Below, in pieces: positions 1 through 32,000 of a DNA stretch of 32,000 bases. A program made the position numbers and the translations under genes. The notes beneath the pieces are model-generated. The model worked only from the letters and a program-made list of their open reading frames with translations, was not told the DNA's origin and did no database searches. Source of the DNA: Halomicronema hongdechloris C2206 (GTDB lineage: Bacteria > Cyanobacteriota > Cyanobacteriia > Phormidesmidales > Phormidesmidaceae); contig NZ_CP021983.2 of NCBI RefSeq assembly GCF_002075285.3, positions 1,350,001 to 1,382,000 of the forward strand, written 5' to 3'. The number at the start of each line of letters is the position of its first letter. Within the stretch, counting starts at the first letter, position 1.

Positions 1-31
1 CTGCTGGCATTTTTCTCCTGCTGCTGCATAA

Positions 32-748: not shown

Positions 749-765
749 CAGTAGGCTTATAGAGC

Positions 766-2793: not shown

Positions 2794-2804
2794 AGTGTTC
2801 CTCC

Positions 2805-10909: not shown

Positions 10910-11023
10910 TGGGGATTAGACCACTAAGCCCTTAAATTGAGACCCTTATCTACTAAGGTGCCCACTATTATTTCTAAGTCATCAAATAAAATCCTTAAAA
11001 TTACGCAGAATTTTAATCTACCT

Positions 11024-11898: not shown

Positions 11899-11940
11899 GC
11901 TTCCAAGTCCTTGTCTTGGGTGAGCGGGTTGAGGCGATCT

Positions 11941-14018: not shown

Positions 14019-14028
14019 GAGGTGGGTC

Positions 14029-17009: not shown

Positions 17010-20000
17010 TTAGGGAATGATGCTCTGAAAGATTTCGTAGTTGTAGAACTTGCAGCGACTCTGGATAGTTGAGATCAAGCTGGGTACATACGTGAAAATA
17101 TTGTTCGAATCTGATTCTAATAAAAGTTTGCTGAGGTAGCCTATTTGATCAGGCTGAATGATTTCTTTCAATGAGGAAGCAAATTTCCAGACTTCATCAG
17201 AATTAGCTATCTTTAGAGCCTCAATTAATTCATCAAAACTATACTCATTAACCAACCTATCTATCATGATGCTGACGTTATCGCCAGTTGATTGTTCGGT
17301 AGAAAGATAATCGTGATAAATGTCATTTGAATCCCCACTGATCCTTTTAATCGCTAATCTTGCATTCTTCCGCACTTGGGAATCTTGACTACTTAACTCC
17401 GTTTTCAAAGCCGTCAGGCAGCCTCCTCCTAGCTCGCATAGTGCGCCGATAGCATCACGTGAGACTGACGAATCTTCAAATCCAATAGAGTTTCGACAAC
17501 CTAAAGCTTCAATCAAGACTGGAATACTATCAGTAGCTCCTTCCTTAGCAAGGATAAGAGCAGCGGATAATCGGATTTGAATTTTCGGATCATGAAGGGA
17601 ACGGACAAGAGCACCCCTTGATGCTTCAGTAGGTATCTTCCCCAAAGTTTCGATACAATCTTTTCGGATATCTTCGGTAGAAGACAAATCTTCTAGAATT
17701 TCAATAATAGACTGATCGAGATTCTCAACACCTAGTTTTCCTAGAGCCAAGAGAGTCTGTATATAAATTTGATTAAACTCAAACACGTTACCTGTCTCAT
17801 TAAGTTCTTTTTCAGCTCTTCTAAGATTCTCTTTAAGAAATGAAATAACGGTTGAATCGCCTATCTCACCAAGAGCCTTAATGGCAAAAGTTTTGACAGA
17901 TAAATTCTCATGTTCGTTTAGTAGAGCTTTGATCAATATTGGAATGGATTCTTTTTTGCGCTTTTGCAACAATATAGATATTGCCACTGAATGTTTAGAG
18001 CTATACTGGGTTGTTTTGGAGTCATCTTCAGTAAGAACTCTTTCAAGAACGTGCATAACCGTCAAGTCATCCACGATAATTAGGGCCGTACTAGCACTAT
18101 TGCGGACTAGGAAATCTGAGTCAAGAAATGCAACACTCAATAACGCTTCTGCTATGGTTTCAGAAATCGACTGAGTTTTTGTTACGATCTCTATCGCCCG
18201 TTTTTTGACTACAGAGTCATTACTCTTCAACGCGTTTATTAAATCATTTTCCAAAAAAACAAGCGCATCTTTCTGTAGTGAGTCACAAACAAAATTTCTA
18301 ACTTGCATGTCATCATCGAGCCAGGCTTTTGCAAGTATAGAAAGAGCTTCTTCATCACCCACATCTCTTAACGCGTGTGCAGCTGAACGTCGAGTAACGC
18401 TATCTTCGTCATGGAGTGCTATTTCTAGGAAAGGAAGAATATCTCCATACCCTTTGTTGAGTAGCAAATGAAGACTTGTTATTGCTTTACGTCTAGCTTC
18501 AAGATCTGCGTGTATGAGAGTCTCGCCTAACAGAGGTATTACCTTATCTCTATCTATGTTCTCAATGGCAAGAAGTGCTCTAAAGTGATGCTTTTCAACA
18601 CATAAAGCTTCTTGAAGTGCGGGAATAGCTGATTCATCTCCAAAACTGGCTACTTCACAAGCGGCTATCCAACGAATATCTTCGTCTGAATCTTCTAATG
18701 CCTTTTTTAGAGTATCTACAGAGCTGAGAGTATTTACTTTTCCTAAGGCTTTTATTGTTTCACTCTTTATAAAGGCTTCATCACTTTCTAGTAGTGGGCT
18801 CAAAAATGAAATAGCGGCAAAAGATTTTGTCTCTCCTAGAAGCTTGATTTTGAGTTTTAGAGGGACTGACAAATCATTGACCGAGTTTACTGCCGAAACC
18901 TGTAAGTTATGTTTTGCATTTCCAGCTAGCCTCGCTCCCAGCATTGAATCCACATCATTCATCGCCAGCTTCACTACCCGCAACGCCTGCGCTTCCTCAT
19001 CCACCAGTGCCAGCATCAGAGCAATGGGTTCAGTCCACTTCAACAGGTTGAGGTAGTCTCGCTTTAGTTCCTCATCGCTTAGGTCTGGCAATAGCCGCAG
19101 CAAATGTTCTGCCGCATAATATTCCTGGATTAGCTGGTGGCGAAACTCAATTTGGTCAGTACTGCGGTTTTGCAGCAGGTGGTACTTGAGCAGGTCATCC
19201 AAAATATCTCGAACTGGGAACTGCTCATTGGAGAAAATTCTGCTGAGTTCCTGCTCTGCCTCATCTCGGTGGATGGCTACACGAAAATCAACCGGGGTTT
19301 CTCCCTGCATCATGACTGCGGCAAGAGCTTGCAGGGCGGGTTTCCAGAGTCTGCGATCGCTCAGCGGTCTCACATCCCCTTTCAGCAGCGTCACCTCATG
19401 CTTTCGCACACTGCTGTCTTCATACATCCGGGTAAATGCCTGAAAAATCCCCGCCAGGTTAGAGGGCATTTGATGCTCAGGCGACTGCTGAAAGACCTCG
19501 CAGAGCATCCACAGCAGTAAAGGCGTTTGGCCGAACTCCCGCAAGCGATCGCTGAGTTGCCCCAGCATTGCCTCGGCCTGGTCTGACACGTAGGCGCGAA
19601 TAAACGCCTTCATTTGCTCTTCAGTCAGGGACTGCATTTCCAGTTTCTTCTCGATGCCCAGATCTCCCCCCAGGCCCAGCTCTCGGGTGGTGAAGATCAT
19701 GGGCACTTTGGAGTAGTCCTGCCGAAAGCTTGCCAGATGAGTTCTTGCCGTTTCGGATGGCAACTCATTTAACCCATCCACTAGGAGTAAAAAATGCCCC
19801 TGGCGCAGTAGCGATGTAAGAGTACTGTCATCCAGAGAAAGAGTGGGATCGTGTTTGTGGAGAAATGCCTGGATGCGATCGATGACTGAGGTTTGCCAGT
19901 AGCGCAGTTCTACCAAAATGGGAATTTGGCCTGAGCCCTGCTCCAATGCCTGAGTGGCCGTTTCCAGCAGTAGCCGAATCAACGCTGTCGATTTGCCAGA

Positions 20001-20543
20001 ACCGGGACGTCCGACTAGCAATACATGGTCATCGGCATATTTGCAAATGCCTTCCAGCACAGGTAAGCGCTCAGTTTTCTCCTGCTGCTCCTGAAGTGGG
20101 TTCGCTTCCGAAACAGCCGAATCCTTTTCTTTCGGAACAGTCTGGACCATCAAGCCAAAGTCAAAGGGGGATGGACTCTCTGACTCCGATTCCTGAATTT
20201 TGCCAGTGGCATCGGTCAGCGTGTAGTAACGCCACCACTCTTTGTAGGTATCAACCAGCGATCTCAAGTAGGACTGAAAGCCAATCTGCGCTGGCGTCTT
20301 CGAAGCTGCACTGTTCTGAATTGCCTCGACGATCGCCTGCACCGCTGCATCATTGATTTCGACGAAGGTGCGATCGCCAATCTGAATGTCTTTGCCTTCG
20401 CCGATGGTGATGTTGTACTTGCCCAATTGAAACAGCGATCGCCCTTCTTCCCCCTGTAGAGCCTGCTGCAATGCCATAATATCTGCCTTGGAGTATTCAC
20501 CTAAGGCAATGCGTTGAATGATGTCTTGCAGGCGATCGCTCAT
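17010..20543 (-). CDS. NACHT (STAND) NTPase with an N-terminal GKYN..IGEG..IGDR motif domain and a long C-terminal HEAT-repeat array
   Basis: 1177-aa ORF with ATG at 20541-20543. Walker A is GRPGSGKST (about 19986-20012) and Walker B is LLLVDGLNELP. It also has TPLLLWMLCEV and the winged-helix motif IEFRHQLIQEYYAAE. C-terminal HEAT/PBS-lyase-type repeats include DEDIRWIAACEVASFGDESAIPALQEAL, DSVTRRSAAHALRDVGDEEAL and DPKIQIRLSAALILAKEGATDSIPVLIEAL. Confidence 0.85.
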   Translation of the reverse strand: MSDRLQDIIQRIALGEYSKADIMALQQALQGEEGRSLFQLGKYNITIGEGKDIQIGDRTFVEINDAAVQAIVEAIQNSAASKTPAQIGFQSYLRSLVDTYKEWWRYYTLTDATGKIQESESESPSPFDFGLMVQTVPKEKDSAVSEANPLQEQQEKTERLPVLEGICKYADDHVLLVGRPGSGKSTALIRLLLETATQALEQGSGQIPILVELRYWQTSVIDRIQAFLHKHDPTLSLDDSTLTSLLRQGHFLLLVDGLNELPSETARTHLASFRQDYSKVPMIFTTRELGLGGDLGIEKKLEMQSLTEEQMKAFIRAYVSDQAEAMLGQLSDRLREFGQTPLLLWMLCEVFQQSPEHQMPSNLAGIFQAFTRMYEDSSVRKHEVTLLKGDVRPLSDRRLWKPALQALAAVMMQGETPVDFRVAIHRDEAEQELSRIFSNEQFPVRDILDDLLKYHLLQNRSTDQIEFRHQLIQEYYAAEHLLRLLPDLSDEELKRDYLNLLKWTEPIALMLALVDEEAQALRVVKLAMNDVDSMLGARLAGNAKHNLQVSAVNSVNDLSVPLKLKIKLLGETKSFAAISFLSPLLESDEAFIKSETIKALGKVNTLSSVDTLKKALEDSDEDIRWIAACEVASFGDESAIPALQEALCVEKHHFRALLAIENIDRDKVIPLLGETLIHADLEARRKAITSLHLLLNKGYGDILPFLEIALHDEDSVTRRSAAHALRDVGDEEALSILAKAWLDDDMQVRNFVCDSLQKDALVFLENDLINALKSNDSVVKKRAIEIVTKTQSISETIAEALLSVAFLDSDFLVRNSASTALIIVDDLTVMHVLERVLTEDDSKTTQYSSKHSVAISILLQKRKKESIPILIKALLNEHENLSVKTFAIKALGEIGDSTVISFLKENLRRAEKELNETGNVFEFNQIYIQTLLALGKLGVENLDQSIIEILEDLSSTEDIRKDCIETLGKIPTEASRGALVRSLHDPKIQIRLSAALILAKEGATDSIPVLIEALGCRNSIGFEDSSVSRDAIGALCELGGGCLTALKTELSSQDSQVRKNARLAIKRISGDSNDIYHDYLSTEQSTGDNVSIMIDRLVNEYSFDELIEALKIANSDEVWKFASSLKEIIQPDQIGYLSKLLLESDSNNIFTYVPSLISTIQSRCKFYNYEIFQSIIP
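20532..20539. repeat. HIP1 octamer GCGATCGC, one verified example of many copies
   Basis: Other copies verified by position are 20370-20377, 22979-22986 and 27737-27744. Many more are visible, for example near 1901, 2233, 19353, 19548, 23025, 23428, 27610, 27704 and 30302. HIP1 over-representation is a hallmark of many cyanobacterial genomes. Confidence 0.8.
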
Positions 20544-21677: not shown

Positions 21678-22706
21678 CTAGTCGATGTCTATGTGTTCGT
21701 AGTCAGGCAAACGCTCAATTAGATAAGCAATGTATCCCTGTAGCTGAACAACACTATGTGAAGGCAAGTTTTCTGGAAGCAGATTCAGCCCCAGATAGTT
21801 CAATGCAAATATATAGAGTTCATCTTCAATAACTACTGGTGTAACAGGGTTTTCTAAACTATTTTTACGTCCCCAAGTCAAGCAATGACCAAGGTTTTCT
21901 AGAAATTGGTCTAGCGTAAAGTAAAACGCATCTATTTTTTCTTGAGACGCACTATTCTGAATGTCAGAATAGTGCTCTAAAGTATATTTTCCCAAAGACC
22001 TAGCTAAACCATTAGCCCGCTTCCGATCTAGCCAGCGGGCTACGACTTTGCCATCTTCTAATTCCTCGCGGAGCTGTTGGAGTAGCTTGATTTGTTCTTG
22101 AAGACACGTTTGGGAACGAGCTTCCGCGAGACTATTTTCCTGGCTGCTTTCGAGAGCTTGCAATTTTGCCGTCAGATTGTCTACCCCAGCTTGGAGGAGG
22201 ATGTCGGCCTTAGCGGCAAGGGCAGACAATTCCTGCTGCACTTCCATGAGCTGCATGACCTTTCCTTTGACTTGATTGAAATCTGCTAGGTGTTGCTGGG
22301 GAAGGTGTCCTAATTTACGGAGTTCCTCTAGAGCCGCCAGACGAGTATTGAGATGATCTGCCAGTTGAGGTTCAAAAACAAGGGTAGGTAAAGGGGGATC
22401 CTCCAGGGGTGTTTCAGCTAGCTCAGTAGCGGAAGGAACACTCTGTACCAGCAAAGTTGCCTGAACAATCGCGCGAATATCGGCGGCAGTAGGGCCATAG
22501 TAGCGATGTCCCACCTGAACATCAGTCCCCTCGCCAATGACCGTATTGAATTTCCCATCCTGGGAAACAGATTGATTGACATTGGATGGGGGTAGTGGAG
22601 TTAACTGGCCATTTCTGGCTAGAGGCTTTTCAGTCGATTCAGATGTATCACCCTGTTTATCCAGCATCTTTGTTTCTAGCGAAAAAAGCTGATGTGTCCC
22701 GAGCAT
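21678..22706 (-). CDS. P-loop-less protein with an N-terminal GKFN..IGEG..VG motif, a coiled coil and an unknown C-terminal domain. Candidate adaptor or effector of the NACHT cluster.
   Basis: 342-aa ORF; the start may instead be Met14. The motif QDGKFNTVIGEGTDVQVGHRYYGPTAADIRAIVQ lies at nt 22503-22556. A heptad-like stretch covers about aa 120-220. The gene is divergently transcribed from the 874-aa NACHT gene, 94 nt away. Confidence 0.6.
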   Translation of the reverse strand: MLGTHQLFSLETKMLDKQGDTSESTEKPLARNGQLTPLPPSNVNQSVSQDGKFNTVIGEGTDVQVGHRYYGPTAADIRAIVQATLLVQSVPSATELAETPLEDPPLPTLVFEPQLADHLNTRLAALEELRKLGHLPQQHLADFNQVKGKVMQLMEVQQELSALAAKADILLQAGVDNLTAKLQALESSQENSLAEARSQTCLQEQIKLLQQLREELEDGKVVARWLDRKRANGLARSLGKYTLEHYSDIQNSASQEKIDAFYFTLDQFLENLGHCLTWGRKNSLENPVTPVVIEDELYIFALNYLGLNLLPENLPSHSVVQLQGYIAYLIERLPDYEHIDID

Positions 22707-22800: not shown

Positions 22801-25425
22801 ATGCCAATACCTGACGAGTTACTGCCGTTGATAGACCAAATCCTCAATCGCATTGAGCAAGATGGGGCAGCTTTGAAGAGTTGGCGGCAAACGGAAGATG
22901 GCCAGAAAATCATTCAGTATGTGGTGCAAATTGGTAAATACAACACCACTGTAGGCGAAGGAAAAGATATTTCAATTGGCGATCGCCTGGATCGAGCTTT
23001 GCTTGAGGAAGTGCGTAACTTGCTGCGATCGCAACTCTCGTCTCAAGTAGTAGAAATCAACTGGTCGCAAGTCAGCAGATTGCTTTTAGAACGCCAAGTT
23101 CAACGTCTGACCTCAAATCCTTTAACCCATGCCGAGGGGGTCACCTATCGCACTGAACAGGTGTATGTGCCACTGGGGTTGGTGGAGCGCAAGAAGGTGT
23201 CGCGTCACCGGGAGGATGTGCCCCCAGAGCAAGGCTCGTTGCTGTACAAGGAGACGGAGATTTCTCAGAAGTTTGAACAAGCAGTGTTTCTGGAGCAGGT
23301 GTTACGACAGGGGCAGAGCCCTCGGAGTGGGGGGCGACGGATTGTGATCATTGGGGAGCCAGGGGCGGGCAAGACGACGCTGTTGCAGCAGATGGCCTGG
23401 TGGGTGACGGAAAACATTGAAGGGGCGATCGCGATTTGGGTGTCGTTAGCGGGTTTGCAGGGGCGAGCTCTGGAGAATTATCTGCTAGAGCAGTGGTTAC
23501 CGGCAGTAGTGCAGCAGCAGGGACAGGCGGAAGCTTCGACACAAGTGAAGGATGCGCTAGTGGCGCAGTTTCGCGCGGGGCGGGTATGGCTGTGGCTTGA
23601 TGGGGTGGATGAGATGCCAGTAGCAGCGGGTAATCCGCTGAATGAGGTTGAGCGACAGGTGAGATTGGGAGGTTTGTTGGCGCAGGCGCGGATCGTGTTG
23701 ACCTGTCGGTTGAATCTGTGGGACGGAGAACGTCATGCGCTTGATACTTTCGACGTTTATCGGACGTTGGAGTTTACTTATCCGAAGCAGGTAGAGCAGG
23801 TCGTCGGGCAGTGGTTTGGGGCGTTGCCAGAAGCCCAGGTAGGGCAGGCAGAGCGGTTGTGTGAGGCATTACGGCAACCGGGAAAAGAGCGACTGCGAGA
23901 TTTAGTGAAGAATCCACTCCGGCTAACTTTGTTGTGTTTCAACTGGTATTTGGGAGAGGGAACGCTACCGGAAACGAAGGCTGGATTGTATGAGCAGTTT
24001 GTGGCGGATTTTTATGAGTGGAAGCGGGAGCGGTTTCCGACGACAGCGGAGCAACGAAGGCAGTTAAATGCGGCACTGGGTGAGTTGGCACGGGAGGCAA
24101 TCGATAAGGAGGAAACCCGGTTCCGACTGCGGCATGATTTTGTGTGCAAATTTTTGGGCGAACCGGATGAGCCTGATTCGTTGTTTCAGATGGCATTGCG
24201 GTTGGGATGGCTGAATCAAATCGGTGTGGATGCGGACAATCGGCGAAAGGCAGTGTATGCGTTTTTCCATCCCACGTTTCAGGAATATTTTGCAGCATCG
24301 ATTATAGTGAAGCAGTTTCAGGAAAATAGCATCACCTTTGAGCAATTGAAAACCGATATTCTTAGTAAATATTGGCAAGATGACTCATGGCATGAAGTTC
24401 TACTACTAGTTTGTGGATTGGTCAGCAACAAGATCTCCACTAAAATAATTGATTTTTTCATTGATCATTTTGAGTCGGGCAAGAATTTAATACGTCAAAA
24501 TGAGAACCAATCAATTTTCCAACAAGCCAGCCTTTTCGAACCCATAGAAGACTTTGAAAATAAAAATTTTGATAATGATTTTGAGAACGAGGATTTTAGT
24601 GTCCCTGAATATTTCAGTAGAAATTACAACTTTAATAGTAGTAGCCTTGCTTTTGCAATCTCCATTTCCCAAGAGATAAATAATGGCCACAATAGTAAGA
24701 TGACTCGTCAAAATTTAATTGCTCGCCTCGAAGATCATCTTGAATATCTTGAGGACTTTGTTGAAAGCCTTGGGAACTATACTTGGGATAACCTTACTGC
24801 AGACTATCTTAATCGTATATTTAGCGATATAGCTATTTTGGGACAAGGTTATAAAGAAGTTTTCAACTATCTTGCAAGTAAAGCCTGCGATGCTGAATTA
24901 CAAGAAATATGTTCAGCATCAATCAGAGCACTTGCAGAACATTGGAATAATGATGAAATGTTACTGGAATTATTAGTGAAAGCTGCTATTAAAAACCGTT
25001 TCGGCACATCAAAGTTTTCAATCAATGATCCAAATCTGGTGACTAGCCCTCGTAAGATAGCGCTAGAAGCTCTTTTTATTCGTTATCCAAATCATGCAAA
25101 AACCATACAAGCTTTAAAGGATCGCGCAATCAATGATCCAGACGAACCAGTTCGATGGTATGCAGCCCAAGCCTTGGGCCAATTAGCGAAAAGCACTCCT
25201 GAAATCATGGATTTTTTATTTTCAGTTGTTAAAAATTCTCGCTATGACAGCAAATATAATTACCGAGTTAGTCCACGCCATACAATTTTAGGCGCGATAG
25301 TTTTGCACTGTTCAAATCATTTCCAAGCTTTTGCTCTTTTATCAGATTTGGCACTTAATGATTCTAATGAAGAACTACGTCTATGGGTGAAAGAACAACT
25401 TAAAAACTGGGAATCACCAGTGTGA
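22801..25425 (+). CDS. NACHT (STAND) NTPase with an N-terminal GKYN..IGEG..IGDR motif and a C-terminal helical/HEAT-like sensor region
   Basis: 874-aa ORF. Walker A is GEPGAGKTT (23353-23376) and Walker B is WLWLDGVDEMP. It also has NPLRLTLLCF and FFHPTFQEYFAA (about 24265-24300). C-terminal HEAT-like units are DPDEPVRWYAAQALGQLAKS and NDSNEELRLWVKEQL. Confidence 0.85.
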   Translation: MPIPDELLPLIDQILNRIEQDGAALKSWRQTEDGQKIIQYVVQIGKYNTTVGEGKDISIGDRLDRALLEEVRNLLRSQLSSQVVEINWSQVSRLLLERQVQRLTSNPLTHAEGVTYRTEQVYVPLGLVERKKVSRHREDVPPEQGSLLYKETEISQKFEQAVFLEQVLRQGQSPRSGGRRIVIIGEPGAGKTTLLQQMAWWVTENIEGAIAIWVSLAGLQGRALENYLLEQWLPAVVQQQGQAEASTQVKDALVAQFRAGRVWLWLDGVDEMPVAAGNPLNEVERQVRLGGLLAQARIVLTCRLNLWDGERHALDTFDVYRTLEFTYPKQVEQVVGQWFGALPEAQVGQAERLCEALRQPGKERLRDLVKNPLRLTLLCFNWYLGEGTLPETKAGLYEQFVADFYEWKRERFPTTAEQRRQLNAALGELAREAIDKEETRFRLRHDFVCKFLGEPDEPDSLFQMALRLGWLNQIGVDADNRRKAVYAFFHPTFQEYFAASIIVKQFQENSITFEQLKTDILSKYWQDDSWHEVLLLVCGLVSNKISTKIIDFFIDHFESGKNLIRQNENQSIFQQASLFEPIEDFENKNFDNDFENEDFSVPEYFSRNYNFNSSSLAFAISISQEINNGHNSKMTRQNLIARLEDHLEYLEDFVESLGNYTWDNLTADYLNRIFSDIAILGQGYKEVFNYLASKACDAELQEICSASIRALAEHWNNDEMLLELLVKAAIKNRFGTSKFSINDPNLVTSPRKIALEALFIRYPNHAKTIQALKDRAINDPDEPVRWYAAQALGQLAKSTPEIMDFLFSVVKNSRYDSKYNYRVSPRHTILGAIVLHCSNHFQAFALLSDLALNDSNEELRLWVKEQLKNWESPV

Positions 25426-25489: not shown

Positions 25490-27922
25490 CTAATTATTGT
25501 CAGTTTTTTTGTGGCTTCGTTTTTCAATTTCGGCGATTGGCAACAGTAATGTATCTACAATCTCTCGCTGGACTCCATAATTTACTGAAGCATTCCTATT
25601 TAGACAATCCATTAACAGCTTATTAGCTTCATAGTAATTCTGAAGTATTTGTTTTTGTTTCCAATTCGCTTGCCAGTTACTGCCTAGATCCCGATGATTA
25701 TCTAAAATCAAATGAATCTGCCGTGACCAATCATCATGATTGGCTGCCCACCAGTCATCTAGATATCCCCATCGTGAGTGTTGCTCATAAGCAGGTGAGT
25801 CTTTAGATAGATAATATTCAGATGGAGGCAATAAGCTCAGAATAACATTATTTATGTACTGGTTGGTTTCTACGTCTAAAGGGTATGTACTATAAAGGCA
25901 CAGGGGTGCAGATCTCTCAAATTCTGCTTCATCGTCGGGTCGCCAATTTCGATTCGGTAAATCAGCTTTTTGAAGATGAATATTAATTTTTTTGTCCTCA
26001 AATTTATTGATAAAGAGAAAAACTGCAAAATCGTAAGTTGAACTATTGGGACGAGAGAAAAAGCCATACAGTAAGTCATATAATGAACGATATTCAGAGT
26101 TGAGATTTTGGTCGATTTTGGCAAATAGATGATTGACAGGATCATTTTCAAGGTTTTGAACAAAAGCCAGGAAAATAGCTCTCAAGGCAGCTAATTTATA
26201 ATTTTCCTTTGTAGCCTTTGCTTTATGAGATATCCATGATAGAAACGAGTTTATTTCAAGCTCATTAGCAACTAATTTATCTATATAATTTTTCATTGAG
26301 GCTAACAAATTGTTTGCGTCAGACAGTAGCTCGATCGTAAGAAGAAACACCTCTTGCCAGTGCTTGTTAATGCACTGAATGCTCATATTTTCAAAGTCTT
26401 TTGTTGCACAAAACCATTGCGCTACTAAATATTCTTGAAAAGTTAGATGTGAAAATGTCCAAACCTTCTGGCTTCTCTCAAGCAATAACCCATGCTGAGC
26501 TTCGATTGCCCGCAATACCCCCCGACTCTCCCGCAACCCAATTCCCAAAAACTCCGCAATATACTCCTCAATCTCCGCTTGCTCAAACAACACATACTGC
26601 TCCTGCTCAAACTTCTTCACGGCCAGATAGCTTAATAGCCCCAGCTTCCGCTCCACCGACAAATCGCGATAAATCTCATCCCGCTCAATCTCCCGCGACT
26701 TATCCCACTGCTCCAGCAGTAACTCCAATCCTTCTTCGTAGAGTTTCGACCTCTTCGAATAAAACTTTCCCGACTGGTGAAACACTGCACAAGTCAAACT
26801 CAGCAAAATTGGAGTAATTGCCAATTCCCGAATCGACTTGTTCTCCTCCCGAAACAATTGTTCCAAAAATGCTGTTGTCTTAGCCTGACCTGCGGTGAGA
26901 TCCCCACAAACCGTCTGAAACCAATGCTCGGCAAACGCTCTTACCTGCGGCTCATTAAAATCCGCCACTTCTACGTAATCAAACCGCTCAAACCGCGACT
27001 CCTGGCTCTGCGTCCGGCATGTCACAATTATCTGCACCTGCGGATAAGCTCGCGCAAACCGCTTGATTTGCTTAGCGATTGCCTGCCCATCTGCCCCCGT
27101 CACCTCATCCAGCCCATCCAGCAGCACCAGGGATCGGCCTTCACCCAGCACCAGCCGCACAGCCTGATCCGACAACTGCCAGCATCGTTCCAAATACCGC
27201 TCTATTGAGTAACCAACTTCACGCCCATCCTCCACAAACTCCCGCAGCCGAATTAACACCGGAATTCGGTGCGTCTGCAAATTGCCCGCATTACACTCCG
27301 TCACTACCCGCTGCAAATACGTCGTCTTTCCCGAACCCGGCTTGCCCACCACCATCAGGTTGGTATCCCTGTCCAGCACCTTCAGTCCCGACACCCGTTG
27401 CCGTTCCTTACCCAAGCCCATGCGATCCAAACCGCGATAGCTGGGATTCTGGCTGAAGTCTTGCCACAGATCTACTAACTCCGATCGCCGATTGCTACTC
27501 ACCTCCTCCAGAATATTCACATCCACAAACAACTCGCCCAGTGGCACCCAACGATCCACCCCCCATAGCGGCATCGTGCCGTACAAGCGCTGAATGTCAT
27601 TGTGGATGCGCGATCGCACCTGCTGCACGAGCTCGTCTACTGACGTAACTTCTGCTGAATGAGACGGTTCTGACTTGTTTATCTCTTCTCGAATGGCTTG
27701 AGCGATCGCCTGGATATTCTCCTCCGTCAATTCGAGGCGATCGCCAATATGTATCTGCCCCAGGGCTTGCTGGATATTGACTGCGTACTTACCGACTTGC
27801 AGCACTGAAGGGGAGCAATCGCCTTCACCAAAAAAATCTCGCAGCGTTTGTAGATCAGCTTCAGTATGGTCGCCTTTAGCAATGCGCTCCAGGATAATTG
27901 GCAAATCCTCAAACTGAGCCAT
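25490..27922 (-). CDS. NACHT (STAND) NTPase with the N-terminal GKY...IGDR motif and a C-terminal all-helical domain of the type common in cyanobacterial NACHT proteins
   Basis: 810-aa ORF with ATG at 27920-27922. Walker A is GKPGSGKTT (27323-27346) and Walker B is LVLLDGLDEV. It also has TPILLSLTCAVF and FSHLTFQEYLVA (about 26429-26450). The C-terminal end QNYYEANKLLMDCLNRNASVNYGVQREIVDTLLLPIAEI matches a recurrent cyanobacterial NACHT C-terminal helical module, from memory. Confidence 0.85.
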   Translation of the reverse strand: MAQFEDLPIILERIAKGDHTEADLQTLRDFFGEGDCSPSVLQVGKYAVNIQQALGQIHIGDRLELTEENIQAIAQAIREEINKSEPSHSAEVTSVDELVQQVRSRIHNDIQRLYGTMPLWGVDRWVPLGELFVDVNILEEVSSNRRSELVDLWQDFSQNPSYRGLDRMGLGKERQRVSGLKVLDRDTNLMVVGKPGSGKTTYLQRVVTECNAGNLQTHRIPVLIRLREFVEDGREVGYSIERYLERCWQLSDQAVRLVLGEGRSLVLLDGLDEVTGADGQAIAKQIKRFARAYPQVQIIVTCRTQSQESRFERFDYVEVADFNEPQVRAFAEHWFQTVCGDLTAGQAKTTAFLEQLFREENKSIRELAITPILLSLTCAVFHQSGKFYSKRSKLYEEGLELLLEQWDKSREIERDEIYRDLSVERKLGLLSYLAVKKFEQEQYVLFEQAEIEEYIAEFLGIGLRESRGVLRAIEAQHGLLLERSQKVWTFSHLTFQEYLVAQWFCATKDFENMSIQCINKHWQEVFLLTIELLSDANNLLASMKNYIDKLVANELEINSFLSWISHKAKATKENYKLAALRAIFLAFVQNLENDPVNHLFAKIDQNLNSEYRSLYDLLYGFFSRPNSSTYDFAVFLFINKFEDKKINIHLQKADLPNRNWRPDDEAEFERSAPLCLYSTYPLDVETNQYINNVILSLLPPSEYYLSKDSPAYEQHSRWGYLDDWWAANHDDWSRQIHLILDNHRDLGSNWQANWKQKQILQNYYEANKLLMDCLNRNASVNYGVQREIVDTLLLPIAEIEKRSHKKTDNN

Positions 27923-28119
27923 ACGTGACGAATCCCGTCAACTTTGAAATACAACAGCGAAAGCTGCCTGAATCATAGCCTTTTGCCCGCTTTGCCGTGA
28001 CTCCGATGGTTTGTGAAGTGGCGCATTGCTTATTGGACAGAGTGCGATCGTGACATTCCATTTTAGAGCAACTATGAAGTTCGGAAAACACAGCGGACCT
28101 ACTCAGGTACAGTGCTGAG

Positions 28120-30417
28120 CTACTTTAGGGGCATGGTGGCAAAATGCTCTTGCACGAGCTTATGAATAAATCGATAGCGCCCGCCAACGCGCTGCAATAA
28201 GAGACGCTCTGTGCAGTGGTTGAGGAAGCGAGCGTAGTTCCAAGGACCATTTTCACTTCTGAAGAGCAACAACCTAAGCACGAAATGCTGAATAAGAGGC
28301 CATCCAATTGATGCAAAACTCATTAAAAATCCACAAATTGCTCCAAAAAAAACTATTTTCGGAACCTCTCTGGCAATAATATTCGAGTCTGGGCTGAGGA
28401 AAACAAATCCAAAAACAAATAGCCCAAGTAAAGCATTAAATAAAAAACATGAGGCTAGAAGTAGTTTCAGATTTTGACGAATTCCATGATTGGGATAAAT
28501 CTTGAATTCTATGGGCTTCCTTAGGCCTTTAAATACTCCAAACATAATCCCAAAAACCATCCATAATGCTGCCATCACAAAGATCCAAACAAAAAACATA
28601 CTGAATAAATCAAATAATTGTGTTCCTACGATTGATCCTCCATCGTGCTGAGGTGATTTAATGACAAAAAGTCGAGGTGAGTAAAGCCATGCAAATAAGG
28701 CAGTTACTAAGCTCACAAGACCAAAGCCGGCACCTGATAATGAGCCCAAGAGCACCCATTTTTTTAGCAGCCTTGGTTTGATTTCTCGAATAGAAAAGGC
28801 TTCAGTAAACTCAATGCTAGTTTGACTATTCTTGAATCCCAAGTAAAAACCTGCCATAGATGCTAACAAAGCCCCCCCCAAAGCCGCACGAATGAAGGTG
28901 AAATGCATAAGCTCAGCCAATGTTACCGAAATTCTTGCATTGGAAGAAGAAGAGACTCCCCAGAGAATGGTTGAGGTTTCAGGAGAAATCGAAGTTAACA
29001 AGCCAAAAAGTAGCAAGGATAAGAAATAGTGAATCGAACCAGTAAATACACTAAACAGAATGGAAGTTGTCAATATATATTTTCTGTGCTGGTTTGGTTT
29101 TAAAGTGCTTGCCTGTACTTCTTCAATTGAAAAATCATCAATAAAAGACTTGCCAAGCATTTGTGCAAGCCATACAAGCTGTAATCGAATTGTCTTAGCT
29201 GTAGGATGGCTACCTATTAAATAGTCCTTACTATTTATGACTTCATGAAGTCGTCGTTCCACATAAGCGTCCAGCAAGTACTCCATCCTGGCTTGGGTGG
29301 TTTGCTTTTGCTGCCAACGTTCTGGCTCTATACCATCATTGGCAAGTAAGGCCACACTCAACAGTAGTGGCGTGCGTACCAAAGCGAGGAGTTCTGCATC
29401 CTGGCACAGGGTTTCCCACAAGTCCTGACGGCTTAATGAGGTCAGGTAGCTTTGCAATTGCTCATCGGTCAGAGGTTCCAGGCAAATGGCTCCATTGAGT
29501 TCCAGTTTGGTATCGTACAGGTCGTATTCTTCCATGCGGCTGCACACCAGCATCCCCGTTGGCCCCTCCCCAGATCGCAACCATTCGTTGATTGCTTGCA
29601 CCACAGATTCTTGTCGCTCAGGGGGCAGTTCATCTAGACCATCGAGTAAGGGCAGCAACGTTTTCTGCGTTAGCCAGGATTTCCCCAGCTTGGGCGACAC
29701 CCCGTACTTCAGCCTGAGTTCGTTCACCAGCCAGTCTGTCAAGCTCTGCTTCGCACTTTGCCAGGACGACAGGTTTACCATCACCGGAATCGGCTGTTCT
29801 GGGTCATCATTCGCCCGCTGAATCAGCACCGCCGCCAGATCCAGCATGGTGGTGGTTTTGCCAGCGCCGGGGTTACCCAGAATCAGCAACCTGCCTCCCA
29901 CCTCCCGCCGATCAAACACCTCAGCAACGTGAGTCCCTGGGGGTAGTTGCTTGGGCTTCCGGTCAGCAGTACGAATCTGGCTATCCCAGGGACGGCTCAC
30001 CTGGGTGCGGTCTTCGGCCATATCGAGCCGCACCAGAATGGCATTGTGTAGCGACTGTCGCAAGCGATCTTCTACCTCTGTCCATACGGCAGCAATCAGC
30101 GTTTTTTCGTTGCCGTCCTTACGGGTGGGTTGCGGCTGCGTTTCTGGCAATCCATAAAAGTAGGCGCTTGAGGCTGCCAGCACCTCCTGCAATACCAGTT
30201 TTAAGGTTTCTGCATCCATCCCCTGATGAATCACCACCCGGTTGTTATCACCCAAGATGTTGTCACTTCCCGTGACAATCTTTGCGCCAGTTGCATCGCG
30301 GGCGATCGCCACCGCTCCCTGACCAGACGCACTGACCTCCGCCAGTAGCGCCTGAAGGTTTTCCTGAGGGAGCTCCTTCAGTGCCGCTTTCAGGTTTTCC
30401 AGGCTATCTGACATCAA
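28120..30417 (-). CDS. NACHT (STAND) NTPase with an N-terminal Gly/Asn-rich motif and a roughly 6-helix transmembrane block inserted before the terminal winged-helix motif
   Basis: The ORF track starts at TTG 30415-30417; ATG at 30412-30414 is the more likely start, 8 nt after the caspase stop. Walker A is GNPGAGKTT (29854-29877) and Walker B is LLPLLDGLDELP, followed by RTPLLLSVALL. Hydrophobic segments span aa ~447-718 (nt 28264-29079). The final 36 aa contain the canonical GGRYRFIHKLVQEHFA motif. Confidence 0.8.
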   Translation of the reverse strand: MMSDSLENLKAALKELPQENLQALLAEVSASGQGAVAIARDATGAKIVTGSDNILGDNNRVVIHQGMDAETLKLVLQEVLAASSAYFYGLPETQPQPTRKDGNEKTLIAAVWTEVEDRLRQSLHNAILVRLDMAEDRTQVSRPWDSQIRTADRKPKQLPPGTHVAEVFDRREVGGRLLILGNPGAGKTTTMLDLAAVLIQRANDDPEQPIPVMVNLSSWQSAKQSLTDWLVNELRLKYGVSPKLGKSWLTQKTLLPLLDGLDELPPERQESVVQAINEWLRSGEGPTGMLVCSRMEEYDLYDTKLELNGAICLEPLTDEQLQSYLTSLSRQDLWETLCQDAELLALVRTPLLLSVALLANDGIEPERWQQKQTTQARMEYLLDAYVERRLHEVINSKDYLIGSHPTAKTIRLQLVWLAQMLGKSFIDDFSIEEVQASTLKPNQHRKYILTTSILFSVFTGSIHYFLSLLLFGLLTSISPETSTILWGVSSSSNARISVTLAELMHFTFIRAALGGALLASMAGFYLGFKNSQTSIEFTEAFSIREIKPRLLKKWVLLGSLSGAGFGLVSLVTALFAWLYSPRLFVIKSPQHDGGSIVGTQLFDLFSMFFVWIFVMAALWMVFGIMFGVFKGLRKPIEFKIYPNHGIRQNLKLLLASCFLFNALLGLFVFGFVFLSPDSNIIAREVPKIVFFGAICGFLMSFASIGWPLIQHFVLRLLLFRSENGPWNYARFLNHCTERLLLQRVGGRYRFIHKLVQEHFATMPLK

Positions 30418-30422
30418 ACCAC

Positions 30423-31469
30423 TTACTCCTTGTCAGCTTGATCAGCACCAAAAGTGTCACCAATGTGCAAACCCTGGATATTGTCTCCCATGCTGATGTT
30501 GTACTTACCTTTTTGATTCACAGTCTGCACTCGGTTATTGTTGCCAACGATGTTGCCCTGTCCAGTAACAATCGTTGCCCCCTGCGCGTTCTGAACCGCA
30601 ACTGCGCCATCTCCTGAAGCTGCGATCGTGGTTTGAATCATTTGGCCGTTCAATTCACCAGGCTGTGACTCAATCCGAGGCTTGGATGCTAACTCAGGCG
30701 GCAGGCCCTTCGGCTGCAGATCGCCTCCGGCATAGTACGCCAGCACAAAGTTATCGGCCTTCTCAATGTCCAGCACAGGGTGTTGTTTATCGCTGGTCAA
30801 TGTCGGCACAATGCGGCTGGCATACATCGCTAAATCCGTCGCCCGAATGTAGCCATCTTGCTGGGTGGCTCCTTCCCCACATAATCCCTTCATCAGGGCA
30901 TAGGTAAAGGCACTGTAGGGTTCTCCGGCATAGGACAACTCATCTGGCCGTGAGGAGCCAATCATGATGCGTCCGCCTCCTTTGGCAAACATCCTTTGCG
31001 CTTCCGGCGGCAGCGGAGCTTTGGTCGCTGCAAAGGCAGAGACATCACTTAATCCGCCAGCATGGCAGCAATCCAGCATCACCAGCAGTTTCTGCGCCGG
31101 AATCTCGCGCAGGTAATCCACAAACTCACTGCCGCTAATGGCGGTCTCATCCAAAGCTTCAGTGTTGTAGCCGTAGGGCATTAAAAAATAAGACTTAAAC
31201 GGCTTTTGCAGTTGGTGGCCATGTCCTGAGAAATAAATCAGCACCGTCGAATCGTCGTCGGTTGAATTCGCTAAGGTCTCCAAAGTTTGCAAAATCTGGC
31301 TGCGGGTTGCCTTTTCCCCCGTAAGGAAATGCACCTGGCTTTCTGGATAGGCACAGCGCTCGGGGTCTTGCAGAACCTTCGCCAGACCTTTAGCATCGGT
31401 GGCGGTAGTCGGCAAATCGCCACCGACTCCAATCACGCAAGCATGCCCTTGTTCAAAAAGGTGACTCAT
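30423..31469 (-). CDS. Caspase-like peptidase C14 (orthocaspase/metacaspase-like) with a C-terminal Gly/Asn-rich motif tail
   Basis: 348-aa ORF with ATG at 31467-31469. The His-Cys dyad context is LIYFSGHGHQ and VMLDCCHAGG. The C-terminal ~70 aa are non-protease: AASGDGAVAVQNAQGATIVTGQGNIVGNNNRVQTVNQKGKYNISMGDNIQGLHIGD. Confidence 0.85.
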   Translation of the reverse strand: MSHLFEQGHACVIGVGGDLPTTATDAKGLAKVLQDPERCAYPESQVHFLTGEKATRSQILQTLETLANSTDDDSTVLIYFSGHGHQLQKPFKSYFLMPYGYNTEALDETAISGSEFVDYLREIPAQKLLVMLDCCHAGGLSDVSAFAATKAPLPPEAQRMFAKGGGRIMIGSSRPDELSYAGEPYSAFTYALMKGLCGEGATQQDGYIRATDLAMYASRIVPTLTSDKQHPVLDIEKADNFVLAYYAGGDLQPKGLPPELASKPRIESQPGELNGQMIQTTIAASGDGAVAVQNAQGATIVTGQGNIVGNNNRVQTVNQKGKYNISMGDNIQGLHIGDTFGADQADKE

Positions 31470-31652
31470 TTCTGTTTGCCCTCAACTGGAAAATCCTTCG
31501 AGTCTTCCGCCATTATGACCTCGCCGCTAAGAAGGGTTAGCGTTTTTTAGCAATAAAATTTAGTCTTACGATGACTTAGCCATGTTTTTTTGCAGGCAGG
31601 AGTCGTGAGCTGTAGTCATAACAATTGAGATCGCCCTTCAACCCATCTCCCC

Positions 31653-32000
31653 ATGAAACTCCATCCCACTCCCTGGCTGAGCCTGACACTCTCCCTGCTG
31701 GGCTGCCTCCCGGCCCAACCCAGTTTGGCCCAAACAACTGTTATCGTTACCCCTGAAGCCCTGACGGCAACCGGAATGCGCGGGGAAGCTGAACCGGCAA
31801 TCCGAACTTTGGCGATTCGAGCAACTGAGCCCGTAACCGATTTGCAAATCCACACTCTGGATTTGTACAGTCGCGATCGCGATCGAGTTTTCCCCCAAGC
31901 CCTGATTACCGTTCCCACGACCATCAGCTCAGTTGAGGTAGGTACCCTGACCACTTTGCCAGTTGCGTTTAATCTGCAGGCTGCTCCCAGTGGTGAATTT
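31653..32000 (+). CDS. Secreted or lipoprotein-like hypothetical protein, 5' part; the ORF runs off the window
   Basis: ATG at 31653 opens a frame that stays open to the window end (116 codons). The N-terminus MKLHPTPWLSLTLSLLGCLPAQPSLAQ looks like a signal peptide with a possible lipobox (LLGC). It is absent from the ORF track, presumably because no stop lies within the window. Confidence 0.5.
   Translation, partial: MKLHPTPWLSLTLSLLGCLPAQPSLAQTTVIVTPEALTATGMRGEAEPAIRTLAIRATEPVTDLQIHTLDLYSRDRDRVFPQALITVPTTISSVEVGTLTTLPVAFNLQAAPSGEF

What the first reader, a model, noticed from the sequence alone, without database searches (positions are those of the whole stretch)
28264..29079. Six-helix transmembrane block inserted inside the NACHT winged-helix region
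Seen: in the 765-aa protein the usual sequence ...LAQMLGKSFIDDFSIEEV... is followed by about 270 aa. These hold six long hydrophobic segments, starting YILTTSILFSVFTGSIHYFLSLLLFGLL, FIRAALGGALLASMAGFYLGF, WVLLGSLSGAGFGLVSLVTALFAWLY, LFSMFFVWIFVMAALWMVFGIMFGVF, LLLASCFLFNALLGLFVFGFVFL and IVFFGAICGFLMSFASIGWPLI. Only then comes the canonical end of the module (ERLLLQRVGGRYRFIHKLVQEHFA). The paralogues have about 30-50 aa at this position. The insert coincides with the AT-rich segment, and G+C rises again in the last ~140 nt (28/60 at 28141-28200). Inference: a membrane-embedded sensor has been spliced into the NTPase rather than appended. An even helix count would keep both flanks cytoplasmic. 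The protein might sense envelope perturbation and signal to the co-transcribed caspase.
Basis: partly seen in the sequence, partly recalled or inferred. Interest (0 to 1): 0.65.

Follow-up and report, generated by a model that had tools for sequence, protein, structure and literature searches.

The report
Membrane block nested inside NLR-like ATPase
A cyanobacterial immune-type (NLR-like) ATPase has six membrane-spanning helices nested inside its winged-helix domain in place of the usual C-terminal sensor; this layout defines a family of several hundred proteins that the literature mentions only in passing, so the protein is a typical member of a little-studied class.

Summary
ORF 28120-30417(-) encodes EAD10 + NACHT. 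About 275 aa holding six hydrophobic helices sit between winged-helix (WH) strand beta1 and the conserved end of the WH (WNYARFL...RYRFIHKLVQEHFA). The paralogues have 43-45 aa there; this protein has 320.

It is not a one-off splice. All 91 assessable relatives show the same layout, and 336 loci, essentially all cyanobacterial, carry the C-terminal signature. An exhaustive search with the TM block alone found no free-standing membrane protein.

The block behaves as a swappable cassette. DNA identity to a syntenic locus is ~90% on both sides and at chance level across ~29260-28270. GC3 falls from ~0.65 to ~0.3 inside it. The predicted outer loops evolve fastest.

The gene order caspase -> TM-NACHT -> NACHT-NCH2 is conserved, and the caspase tail matches the protein's EAD10-type N-terminus.

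Best reading (inferred): a membrane-embedded sensor gates the NACHT switch and recruits the caspase. Rivals are a plain membrane anchor or a Tmn-like membrane effector.

[quoted passage not shown] Interest is moderate.

The parts
30423..31469 (-). Caspase-like protease (Peptidase_C14, 348 aa), immediately upstream and co-directional; the presumed effector.
   Evidence: Pfam Peptidase_C14 E 5.3e-19. PADLOC caspase 1.8e-16. NCBIfam 'caspase, EACC1-associated type' 97 bits, below its cut-off. The same gene order is found in L001, L002 and L003.
30426..30617 (-). C-terminal tail of the caspase, carrying two EAD10-like halves: ASGDGAVAVQNAQGATIVTGQGNIVGNNNRV, then KGKYNISMGDNIQGLHIGD.
   Evidence: Alignment. 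An HMM of p765-type N-termini hits it at E 2.8e-10, and an HMM of canonical EAD10 at 5.8e-7; the best of 200 shuffles scored 0.17 or worse.
28120..30417 (-). EAD10-NACHT protein with the TM block nested in the winged helix (765 aa from TTG 30417; probably 764 aa from ATG 30414).
   Evidence: An AAGGAG Shine-Dalgarno sequence overlaps the caspase stop codon.
30181..30405 (-). EAD10 adaptor domain (aa 5-79), a variant lacking the GKY...IGD core.
   Evidence: Pfam EAD10 44.4 bits against a cut-off of 24.1; alignment.
29443..29889 (-). NACHT P-loop domain (aa 177-325). Walker A GNPGAGKT is aa 181-188. Walker B/NACHT signature DGLDE is aa 259-263 (nt 29629-29643).
   Evidence: Pfam NACHT 31.2 bits against a cut-off of 26.7. 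Invariant columns G181, P183, G184, G186, K187, D259, G260 and E263.
29128..29199 (-). First part of the winged helix: helix alpha1 (aa 407-424) and strand beta1 (FIDDF, aa 425-429).
   Evidence: AF2 helix H407-424. It aligns with LLSYLAVKKF...YVLF of paralogue p810.
28303..29097 (-). Six-helix membrane block (aa 441-705). AF2 helices are 441-477, 494-526, 548-578, 594-632, 644-673 and 680-703. Conserved cytoplasmic loop motifs are IEFTEAFSI and KPIEFKxxPNHGI.
28135..28302 (-). Remainder of the winged helix (aa 706-761): family-conserved amphipathic helix PLIQHFVLRLLLF (706-720), helix 728-737, beta-hairpin wing 741-744/747-750, and terminal helix with the invariant His752 (nt 28162-28164).
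   Evidence: AF2. Invariant columns H711...H752. In register with the canonical WH His motif by hhalign.
28270..29260 (-). Exchangeable low-GC cassette (about aa 386-716). It comprises WH alpha1/beta1, the TM block and most of helix 706-720.
   Evidence: DNA identity to L001 is ~0.9 on both sides and 0.0-0.53 inside. Protein identity to P0069-P0071 is 86-99% in the scaffold and ~20% in the insert. GC3 is 0.29-0.37 inside against 0.61-0.68 outside.
25490..27922 (-). Paralogue EAD10-NACHT-NCH2 (810 aa), the next gene downstream, with a canonical uninterrupted WH.
   Evidence: Pfam. Conserved downstream of the TM-NACHT gene in L001-L003.
22801..25425 (+). Paralogue EAD10-NACHT-HEAT (874 aa).
   Evidence: Pfam.
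17010..20543 (-). Paralogue EAD10-NACHT-HEAT repeats (1177 aa).
   Evidence: Pfam.
21678..22706 (-). EAD10-bearing 342-aa protein with an unassigned C-terminal region. It is a possible second EAD10 partner for the canonical paralogues, not for p765.
   Evidence: Pfam EAD10. The canonical EAD10 HMM gives 3.1e-11, while the p765-type HMM does not hit it (E 6.3).

Best explanation
**Shown**
- The gene encodes a member of a large, almost exclusively cyanobacterial clade of NLR-like NACHT (STAND) NTPases.
- These proteins lack a C-terminal repeat sensor. Instead they carry a polytopic membrane module nested inside the winged-helix domain (WHD). It lies after helix alpha1 and strand beta1, and before the helix-turn-helix, the wing and the conserved histidine helix.
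- In this protein the module has six helices. The predicted topology is N-in/C-in, so the EAD10 adaptor, the NTPase and both halves of the WHD stay cytoplasmic.
- The module is an exchangeable, fast-evolving cassette within a conserved scaffold.

**Inferred**
- The WHD histidine clamps ADP in resting NLRs, and the WHD is the part that swings on activation. A helix bundle threaded through the WHD is therefore well placed to convert a change in or across the membrane into release of the closed state.
- The trigger could be a ligand on the variable outer loops, a phage membrane protein, or bilayer perturbation.
- Nucleotide exchange and oligomerisation would then cluster the N-terminal EAD10 domains. 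These would recruit the upstream caspase-like protease through its EAD10-like tail and activate it by proximity.
- The outcome would be proteolysis and abortive infection or cell death in the filament.
For: **Architecture**
- Pfam finds EAD10 and NACHT.
- Six helices with positive-inside charge bias.
- WH continuity across the insert is supported by hhalign (global E 1.2e-22, local E 1.2e-17, His motif in register), by AF2 of p765 and of the minimal relative P0051, and by Foldseek matches to NOD2, NLRC4 and NLRP3.

**Family**
- 91 of 91 assessable relatives have hydrophobic segments before the His motif and a tail of 16 aa or less.
- 336 loci carry the signature, and the best 80 are all cyanobacteria.
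- There is no repeat sensor anywhere in these proteins.

**Sensor-like evolution**
- Cassette replacement has sharp breakpoints between scaffolds that are ~90% identical.
- The insert is under purifying selection (omega 0.26) but has 4-5 times the dN of the scaffold.
- Outer loops are 35% identical with omega 0.60. TM helices and cytoplasmic loops are 76-80% identical with omega 0.17-0.18.

**Coupling to the protease**
- Caspase -> TM-NACHT synteny is found in L001-L003, and CHAT -> TM-NACHT in L087/L088.
- The stop-to-start gap is 5-8 nt.
- The caspase tail matches p765-type EAD10 at E 2.8e-10.

**Literature**
- Kibby et al. propose that TM-type bacterial NACHTs recognise intramembrane or periplasmic signals.
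- EADs are described as homotypic adaptors linking effectors to NTPase cores (PMC8195603).
Against: - No experiment bears on sensing, and the trigger is unknown.
- Some family members have only one ~17-30-aa Gly-rich hydrophobic stretch (P0051, P0030). Many have low-complexity GLIFGL repeats. These look more like generic membrane association than a specific receptor.
- An outer-loop omega of 0.60 is below 1, so it fits relaxed constraint as well as diversifying selection.
- The best-characterised membrane-integrated defence NTPase, Tmn, uses its TM helices as the effector and its cytosolic arms as the sensor.
- TM2 is only marginally hydrophobic.
- The topology rests on hydropathy, charge bias and AF2, not on a dedicated predictor or on experiment.
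Confidence: 0.5

Rival explanations
1. Anchor only. The hydrophobic block merely tethers the NACHT-caspase machine to the plasma or thylakoid membrane. The activating signal is perceived elsewhere: by the NACHT core, by the conserved cytoplasmic loops, or by the repeat-bearing EAD10-NACHT paralogues that share the same caspase.
For: - Minimal members have a single short hydrophobic helix plus the conserved amphipathic helix.
- Low-complexity GLxxGL repeats of variable number are common.
- The best-conserved parts of the cassette are the cytoplasmic loops and the amphipathic helix, not the outer loops.
- Three paralogues with conventional sensors sit in the same locus, and their canonical EAD10 type also matches the caspase tail.
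Against: - A pure anchor would not need six helices.
- Wholesale cassette replacement between near-identical scaffolds is hard to explain for an anchor.
- An N- or C-terminal helix would be a simpler anchor than threading through the domain that gates the switch.
- The family has no other candidate sensor domain.
Confidence: 0.2
2. Effector. On NACHT oligomerisation the TM cassettes assemble into a pore or ion conduit that collapses membrane function, as in Tmn/YobI or PifA/KAP-type defences. The caspase would be an additional or alternative output.
For: - Precedent: Tmn's inserted TM helices form a decameric hub that exports Mg2+ (PMC13001434).
- TM2 and TM3 carry small-xxx-small zippers, and many relatives carry GxxxG-rich repeats typical of helix-helix oligomerisation.
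- Most family members have only a short N-terminal region with no recognisable enzymatic effector.
- Effectors, like sensors, diversify quickly in these systems.
Against: - This protein already has a dedicated adaptor (EAD10) and an adjacent protease with a matching tail, conserved in synteny.
- If the block were the effector, the protein would have no sensor at all.
- Divergence is concentrated in the outer loops and not in putative pore-lining helices.
Confidence: 0.2
3. One-off gene fusion. An independent membrane sensor protein was recently spliced into this particular NTPase.
For: The block has a distinct base composition (GC 0.38 against 0.555; GC3 ~0.3 against ~0.65) and sharp boundaries.
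Against: - The exhaustive phmmer search with the block alone found only 3 representatives, all NACHT proteins with the block in the same position.
- The short 'TM+tail' ORFs are halves of split NACHT genes.
- The layout is universal in the clade.
- The low GC3 is shared by inserts of 59 family loci, and by the non-membrane sensor halves of the window's paralogues.
Confidence: 0.03
4. Artefact or pseudogene: a mis-assembly, a frameshifted fusion, or decaying non-functional sequence.
For: Several relatives are split into 2-4 ORFs, so decay does happen in this family.
Against: - The ORF is intact and continuous.
- The 82%-identical orthologue P0068 has the same cassette under purifying selection (omega 0.26).
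- The AF2 model is confident.
Confidence: 0.02

Closest known systems
'TM regions' class of bacterial NACHT proteins (Kibby et al., 'Bacterial NLR-related proteins protect against phage', Supplementary Discussion item 4; bioRxiv 10.1101/2022.07.19.500537)
   Same: [quoted passage not shown] It has variable N-terminal effector or adaptor domains including EADs, and is enriched in multicellular cyanobacteria.
   Different: The paper gives only that sentence. In the papers searched here I found no description of the following: the insertion point within the wHTH; the conserved internal landmarks (IExxE, PNQGI, CIQHFxLRLxLY); the absence of any tail after the WH; cassette exchange; or the outer-loop divergence. 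I found no experimental test of such a protein.
Canonical tripartite NLR / EAD10-NACHT-repeat proteins (window paralogues p810, p874, p1177; NOD2, NLRC4, NLRP3)
   Same: The same NBD-HD1-WHD fold, Walker A, DGLDE Walker B and WHD histidine motif. The paralogues share the N-terminal EAD10 adaptor and the locus.
   Different: There is no HD2 and no C-terminal repeat or NCH2 sensor. The polypeptide ends 5 aa after FIHKLVQEHFA. About 275 aa of membrane helices interrupt the WHD.
Tmn (YobI family) and KAP membrane-associated P-loop NTPases (PMC13001434)
   Same: Defence-associated signalling NTPases with TM helices nested in the catalytic module instead of appended, which couples nucleotide state to the membrane.
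   Different: - These are different NTPase families.
- In Tmn two TM helices are inserted in the P-loop domain itself. Here six helices are in the WHD, more than 160 aa after Walker B.
- Tmn's TM hub is the effector and its arms are the sensors.
- This protein has a separate adaptor and a protease partner.
- There are no Pfam or PADLOC hits to these families.
EACC1-caspase membrane-associated two-gene systems (Kaur et al. 2020, PMC7159879)
   Same: A caspase-superfamily protease is coupled to a conserved small-residue-rich TM element proposed to act as a membrane sensor. The window's caspase is most similar to NCBIfam 'caspase, EACC1-associated type'.
   Different: There is no EACC1 domain here. 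Coupling runs through a NACHT NTPase switch and an EAD10 adaptor. The NCBIfam hit (97 bits) is below the family cut-off of 140.

Membership tests
NACHT clade of STAND NTPases | Walker A P-loop GxxGxGK[ST] | tested here: met
   GNPGAGKT at aa 181-188, invariant across the paralogues.
NACHT clade of STAND NTPases | Walker B with the D[GAS]hDE signature (as defined in Kibby et al.) | tested here: met
   LLDGLDEL, with D259-G-L-D-E263. D259, G260 and E263 are invariant.
NACHT clade of STAND NTPases | Match to the curated NACHT model above its gathering score | tested here: met
   PF05729: 31.2 bits against a cut-off of 26.7, aa 177-325.
NACHT clade of STAND NTPases | wHTH (WHD) after NBD-HD1, with the conserved histidine motif | tested here: met
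   - hhalign of the insert-deleted family against the canonical family: local Prob 98.9%, E 1.2e-17, with FIHKLVQEHF in register with FSHLTFQEYL.
- AF2 places alpha1 before the block, and alpha3, the wing and the His helix after it.
- Foldseek matches NOD2, NLRC4 and NLRP3.
- Caveat: pairwise BLASTP, a plain HMM and Pfam could not reach the WH even in the canonical paralogues. The WH-only profile comparison is modest (P 6e-5 global, 3e-3 local).
Canonical tripartite NLR/Avs architecture | C-terminal repeat or other sensor domain after the NOD module | tested here: not met
   The protein ends 5 aa after the WH motif. All 91 relatives have tails of 16 aa or less.
EAD10-coupled effector systems (Kaur et al. 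2021) | EAD10 adaptor domain on the NTPase | tested here: met
   PF19954: 44.4 bits against a cut-off of 24.1, aa 5-79.
EAD10-coupled effector systems (Kaur et al. 2021) | A neighbouring effector carrying the same EAD | tested here: met
   - The caspase tail is hit by HMMs built from p765-type (E 2.8e-10) and canonical (E 5.8e-7) EAD10 N-termini. 200 shuffles scored 0.17 or worse.
- Caveat: Pfam's own EAD10 model did not report the caspase at E <= 0.01.
EAD10-coupled effector systems (Kaur et al. 2021) | Physical homotypic EAD-EAD interaction leading to effector activation | not testable with these tools
   Needs two-hybrid, pull-down or co-structure experiments.
TM-type bacterial NACHT (Kibby et al. 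category 4) | Multiple TM regions, inserted into the NACHT module | tested here: met
   Six helices between WH beta1 and the WH helix-turn-helix.
TM-type bacterial NACHT (Kibby et al. category 4) | Antiphage or membrane-signal sensing function | not testable with these tools
   No experimental data were found for this clade.
YobI (Tmn) / KAP membrane P-loop NTPases | TM helices inserted within, or flanking, the P-loop domain of a YobI/KAP-type NTPase | tested here: not met
   The insert lies in the WHD, starting about 180 aa after Walker B. The NTPase is NACHT by Pfam. There are no KAP or YobI hits in Pfam or PADLOC.

The most novel reading that the evidence does not exclude
The nested cassette could be a true trans-membrane 'antigen receptor'. 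In this reading its hypervariable extracytoplasmic loops detect a phage, or another external or periplasmic cue, at the cell envelope. The helix bundle then transmits this directly into the WHD latch of an NLR-type switch. That would make these proteins bacterial transmembrane NLRs that sense outside and signal inside. Specificity would be re-programmed by recombinational exchange of low-GC cassettes between conserved scaffolds.
Probability: 0.2. Interest if true: 0.75.

Novelty: new member of a known kind. Interest (0 to 1): 0.48.

Why it matters
All mechanistically understood STAND/NLR immune receptors sense ligands in the cytosol through domains appended to the NTPase.

This clade instead threads a membrane module through the very domain that latches the nucleotide switch. 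That gives a simple, testable route by which a membrane or extracytoplasmic event could fire an NLR-type machine and a caspase.

The natural cassette swaps between scaffolds that are ~90% identical (p765/P0068, P0069, P0070/71) are ready-made specificity-swap experiments.

The architecture has already been noted in the literature, though, and nothing here shows what is sensed. The immediate value is a well-defined family description and a set of hypotheses, not a new principle.

Tried and rejected
1. **Global MAFFT alignment of the four paralogues.** It misplaced the C-terminal motif. I replaced it with local and insert-deleted alignments.
2. **Sequence-level tests of the WH.** Pairwise BLASTP and a plain family HMM against the paralogues aligned only NBD-HD1. 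phmmer of the insert-deleted protein against PDB found nothing. Pfam has no model that detects this WH even in the canonical paralogues. All were uninformative, and only profile-profile and structural comparison resolved the question.
3. **Conserved C-terminal tail as a DNA-level recombination anchor.** Synonymous third-base identity is 0.52 against 0.455 in the scaffold (p = 0.02), largely a codon-degeneracy effect. I dropped the idea.
4. **Family-wide even/odd TM parity test.** It gave 95 even against 78 odd (p = 0.22). The heuristic is off by ±1 even for the orthologue P0068, so the test is inconclusive.
5. **Short 'TM cassette + tail' ORFs as silent donor cassettes or free-standing proteins.** They are halves of split TM-NACHT genes.
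6. **Stand-alone ancestor of the TM block.** None was found among 1.84 billion representatives.
7. **Curated libraries and plasmid DNA.** The megablast against plasmids gave no match. PADLOC and NCBIfam have no model for the family.
8. **Promoter and terminator scan of 27700-32000.** Nothing rose above the shuffle expectation.
Full report
**1. Observation**

The minus-strand ORF 28120..30417 encodes 765 aa. Pfam finds an N-terminal EAD10 domain (aa 5-79, 44.4 bits) and a NACHT P-loop domain (aa 177-325, 31.2 bits, above the gathering score). It finds nothing in the C-terminal 440 aa.

Kyte-Doolittle analysis gives six hydrophobic peaks between aa 447 and 706. AlphaFold2, run on a 41-sequence family alignment (mean pLDDT 82.9, pTM 0.73), predicts six long helices at 441-477, 494-526, 548-578, 594-632, 644-673 and 680-703.

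On a stricter Hessa-type scale (values recalled from memory), TM4, TM5 and TM6 are clearly insertion-competent. TM1 and TM3 are borderline at +1.0. TM2 is marginal at 3.3 and is rich in small-xxx-small zippers. None of seven other window proteins (>6,500 aa) has a single such segment, and shuffles of the insert never reach six.

K/R counts alternate as 3 / 1 / 5 / 2 / 5 / 2 / 4 along the loops. This is the positive-inside pattern for an N-in/C-in six-helix topology.

The compositional remarks are also exact. GC is 0.384 in 28264-29079, against 0.555 upstream and 0.50 in the last 144 nt, and the count at 28141-28200 is 28/60.

**2. Is the block really inside the winged helix?**

In the three paralogues, strand beta1 and the FxHxxxQEY motif are 43-45 aa apart. 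In this protein they are 320 aa apart.

Simple sequence tests were too weak to decide, because they could not reach the WH even in the canonical paralogues. These were BLASTP, a plain HMM, Pfam, and phmmer against PDB.

Profile-profile comparison settled it. I built a profile of 102 family members with the insert deleted in silico, and a profile of 55 canonical relatives of paralogue p810. The two align end to end. In global mode Prob is 99.6% and E is 1.2e-22. In local mode Prob is 98.9% and E is 1.2e-17, covering 1-309 against 1-323. In that alignment:
- LVWLAQ pairs with LLSYLAV;
- EFLIE pairs with YVLFE;
- RLLLQRVGGRYRFIHKLVQEHFA pairs with GLLLERSQKVWTFSHLTFQEYLVA.

The WH region alone gives P = 6e-5 (global) and 3e-3 (local). 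A reversed-template control gives 0.86 and 0.04.

The structure predictions agree. AF2 puts helix alpha1 (407-424) before the block. After it come a conserved amphipathic helix (706-720), a helix (728-737), a beta-hairpin (741-744 and 747-750) and a terminal helix carrying the invariant His752.

P0051 is a natural relative with a 54-aa insert. Its model has the same elements. It superposes on NLRP3, NOD2 and NLRC4 NACHT modules over about 450 columns, with TMq and TMt of about 0.45-0.50. The best matches are ADP-bound or closed forms.

The block therefore interrupts the wHTH after alpha1/beta1. The protein ends 5 aa after the motif, so there is no HD2 and no repeat sensor.

**3. It is a family trait, not a single splice**

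- A search with the C-terminal 347 aa found 67 proteins with the same conserved flanks around variable hydrophobic blocks.
- The full-length search found 512 relatives at E <= 1e-20. Of these, 91 have both a Walker A and a recognisable His motif. All 91 have hydrophobic segments between the two and a tail of 16 aa or less.
- Two tail motifs recover 336 loci among species-representative genomes. The best 80 are all cyanobacteria, mostly filamentous genera, and several genomes hold more than one copy.
- Insert length ranges from about 54 to more than 300 aa, with a crude TM count mode of six. The smallest versions have one Gly-rich hydrophobic helix plus the conserved amphipathic helix.
- Conserved internal landmarks are IExxE, PNQGI and CIQHFxLRLxLY.
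- An exhaustive phmmer search with the TM block alone, against 1.84 billion representatives, returned three proteins. All are NACHT proteins with the block in the same place.
- Short 'TM+tail' ORFs on long contigs are halves of split genes, in the order CHAT -> NACHT fragment -> TM fragment.

The idea that a free-standing membrane sensor was spliced in is therefore not supported.

**4. The block is an exchangeable, fast-evolving cassette**

P0069, P0070 and P0071 are 86-99% identical to the window protein in EAD10, linker and NACHT-HD, and about 80% in the WH-C piece. They are only about 20% identical in the insert, and they carry different TM blocks.

At the DNA level, identity to the syntenic locus L001 is about 0.9 through the caspase and scaffold. 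It collapses to 0.0-0.53 between about 29260 and 28270. It returns to 0.74-0.93 for the last ~150 nt and the next gene. P0072 shows the opposite pattern, with a more distant scaffold (75%) and a related cassette (40%), which is a phylogenetic incongruence.

GC3 drops from 0.61-0.68 to 0.29-0.37 inside the cassette, so hydrophobic codon content alone does not explain the AT-richness. Across 59 family loci, insert GC3 is about 0.32 whatever the host GC, while scaffold GC3 tracks the host.

Against the 82% orthologue P0068, which has the same cassette type:
- the insert is under purifying selection (omega 0.26) but has 4-5 times the dN of the scaffold;
- the predicted outer loops are 35% identical (omega 0.60);
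- the TM helices and cytoplasmic loops are 76-80% identical (omega 0.17-0.18).

**5. Link to the caspase**

The caspase gene ends 5-8 nt before the NACHT start, and an AAGGAG sequence overlaps its stop codon.

The order caspase -> TM-NACHT -> EAD10-NACHT-NCH2 recurs in L001, L002 and L003. In L087 and L088 a CHAT protease precedes the TM-NACHT gene.

The caspase tail contains two EAD10-like halves. One resembles this protein's unusual N-terminus (HMM E 2.8e-10). The other resembles the canonical GKY...IGD type of the other paralogues and of p342 (E 5.8e-7). The best of 200 shuffles scored 0.17 or worse.

Elsewhere in the family the N-terminal module and the upstream partner vary:
- N-terminal modules include EAD1, EAD8, CHAT and beta-roll-like repeats;
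- upstream partners include pentapeptide-repeat proteins (19 of 51 loci) and PGAP1-like hydrolases.

This modularity is what Kaur et al. describe for EAD systems.

**6. Mechanism**

The architecture, the family, the cassette behaviour, the synteny and the adaptor similarity are shown. The rest is inferred.

In NLRs the WHD histidine contacts ADP in the closed state, and the WHD rotates on activation (established knowledge; the models here match closed forms best). A helix bundle threaded through the WHD could therefore transmit a membrane or extracytoplasmic event to the latch. That would trigger oligomerisation and EAD10-mediated recruitment and activation of the caspase.

I put this at about 0.5. 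Two rivals are not excluded:
- **Anchor only (about 0.2).** It is favoured by the minimal and low-complexity inserts, and by the conservation of the cytoplasmic loops and not the outer loops.
- **Tmn-like membrane effector (about 0.2).** It is favoured by the Tmn precedent and by the glycine-zipper motifs.

**7. Comparison with what is known, and novelty**

[quoted passage not shown] I found no dissection or experiment beyond that sentence. PADLOC and NCBIfam have no model for the family.

The protein meets the defining features of NACHT and of EAD10-coupled systems. It fails the tripartite-NLR feature of a C-terminal sensor. It is not a KAP or YobI NTPase.

It is therefore a new member of a known but uncharacterised kind. 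The parts not found in the literature searched here are the insertion point, the internal landmarks, the cassette exchange, the outer-loop divergence and the dual EAD10-like caspase tail. Interest is moderate (0.48).

**8. Limits**

- No dedicated topology predictor was available.
- TM counts in relatives are heuristic, and the parity test was inconclusive.
- Omega values come from one pairwise Nei-Gojobori comparison.
- Which membrane is involved (plasma or thylakoid) is unknown.

Noticed in passing
window 30426-30617 (caspase C-terminal tail): The caspase tail holds two tandem EAD10-like halves. One matches the unusual N-terminus of the TM-NACHT. The other matches the canonical GKY...IGD EAD10 of the three repeat-bearing paralogues and of p342. 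This suggests one protease serves several NACHT sensors.
   Followed up: partly
window 30521-30610: A local divergence hotspot lies in the caspase tail, in the first EAD10-like half. DNA identity to L001 and L003 is 0.63 there, against about 0.9 on either side.
   Followed up: no
window 25490-26500, 24300-25425, 17010-19000: The C-terminal sensor halves (NCH2, HEAT) of all three canonical paralogues show the same sharp drop in GC3 as the TM cassette: 0.23-0.36 against 0.55-0.71 in their EAD10-NACHT halves. The sensor parts of the whole locus therefore have a composition foreign to the scaffold.
   Followed up: partly
L006-L085 (59 family loci): Insert GC3 is nearly constant (~0.32) whatever the host GC, while scaffold GC3 tracks the host. 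The short conserved tail has a high GC3 (0.63) even in AT-rich hosts. The cause is unresolved; it could be a horizontally circulating cassette pool, a mutational regime, or codon preference.
   Followed up: partly
L086:3088-5669, L087:4222-6299, L088:3978-6059: Several TM-NACHT genes are split into 2-4 consecutive ORFs at different points. In L087 and L088, which are syntenic (FtsH-NIF3-CHAT-NACHT), the breaks differ. These are likely pseudogenisation or frameshifts in this family.
   Followed up: partly
L020, L021, L023, L024, L027, L029 and others (upstream ORFs, alignment A4): In 19 of 51 loci the co-directional gene just upstream of the TM-NACHT encodes a large pentapeptide-repeat protein. 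This is a recurrent partner of unknown role.
   Followed up: no
window 1-16710: The NACHT cluster sits next to mobile-element and defence genes: a TrwC relaxase (14029-16710), a ParM-like ATPase (11941-13074), a 1847-aa DEAD/MZB/DUF559 helicase (5366-10909), GmrSD (2805-5369), a UvrD-like helicase (766-2793) and a sacsin-like protein (32-748). This looks like a plasmid- or ICE-borne defence island. The caspase and TM-NACHT segment (28120-31469) has no megablast match in PLSDB.
   Followed up: partly
window 21678-22706: This 342-aa protein has an N-terminal canonical EAD10 and a C-terminal region of about 250 aa with no Pfam, PADLOC or NCBIfam match. It is a possible uncharacterised effector or adaptor for the canonical paralogues.
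   Followed up: no
window 23000-24500 and 26500-27500: GC skew is very strong on the coding strand of the p874 and p810 NACHT scaffolds (|skew| 0.24-0.42). It is much weaker in the TM-NACHT scaffold (~0.13).
   Followed up: no
window 30412-30417: The listed TTG start at 30417 is followed at once by an ATG at 30414. The orthologue spacing in L003 (8 nt after the caspase stop) favours the ATG, which would give 764 aa.
   Followed up: partly
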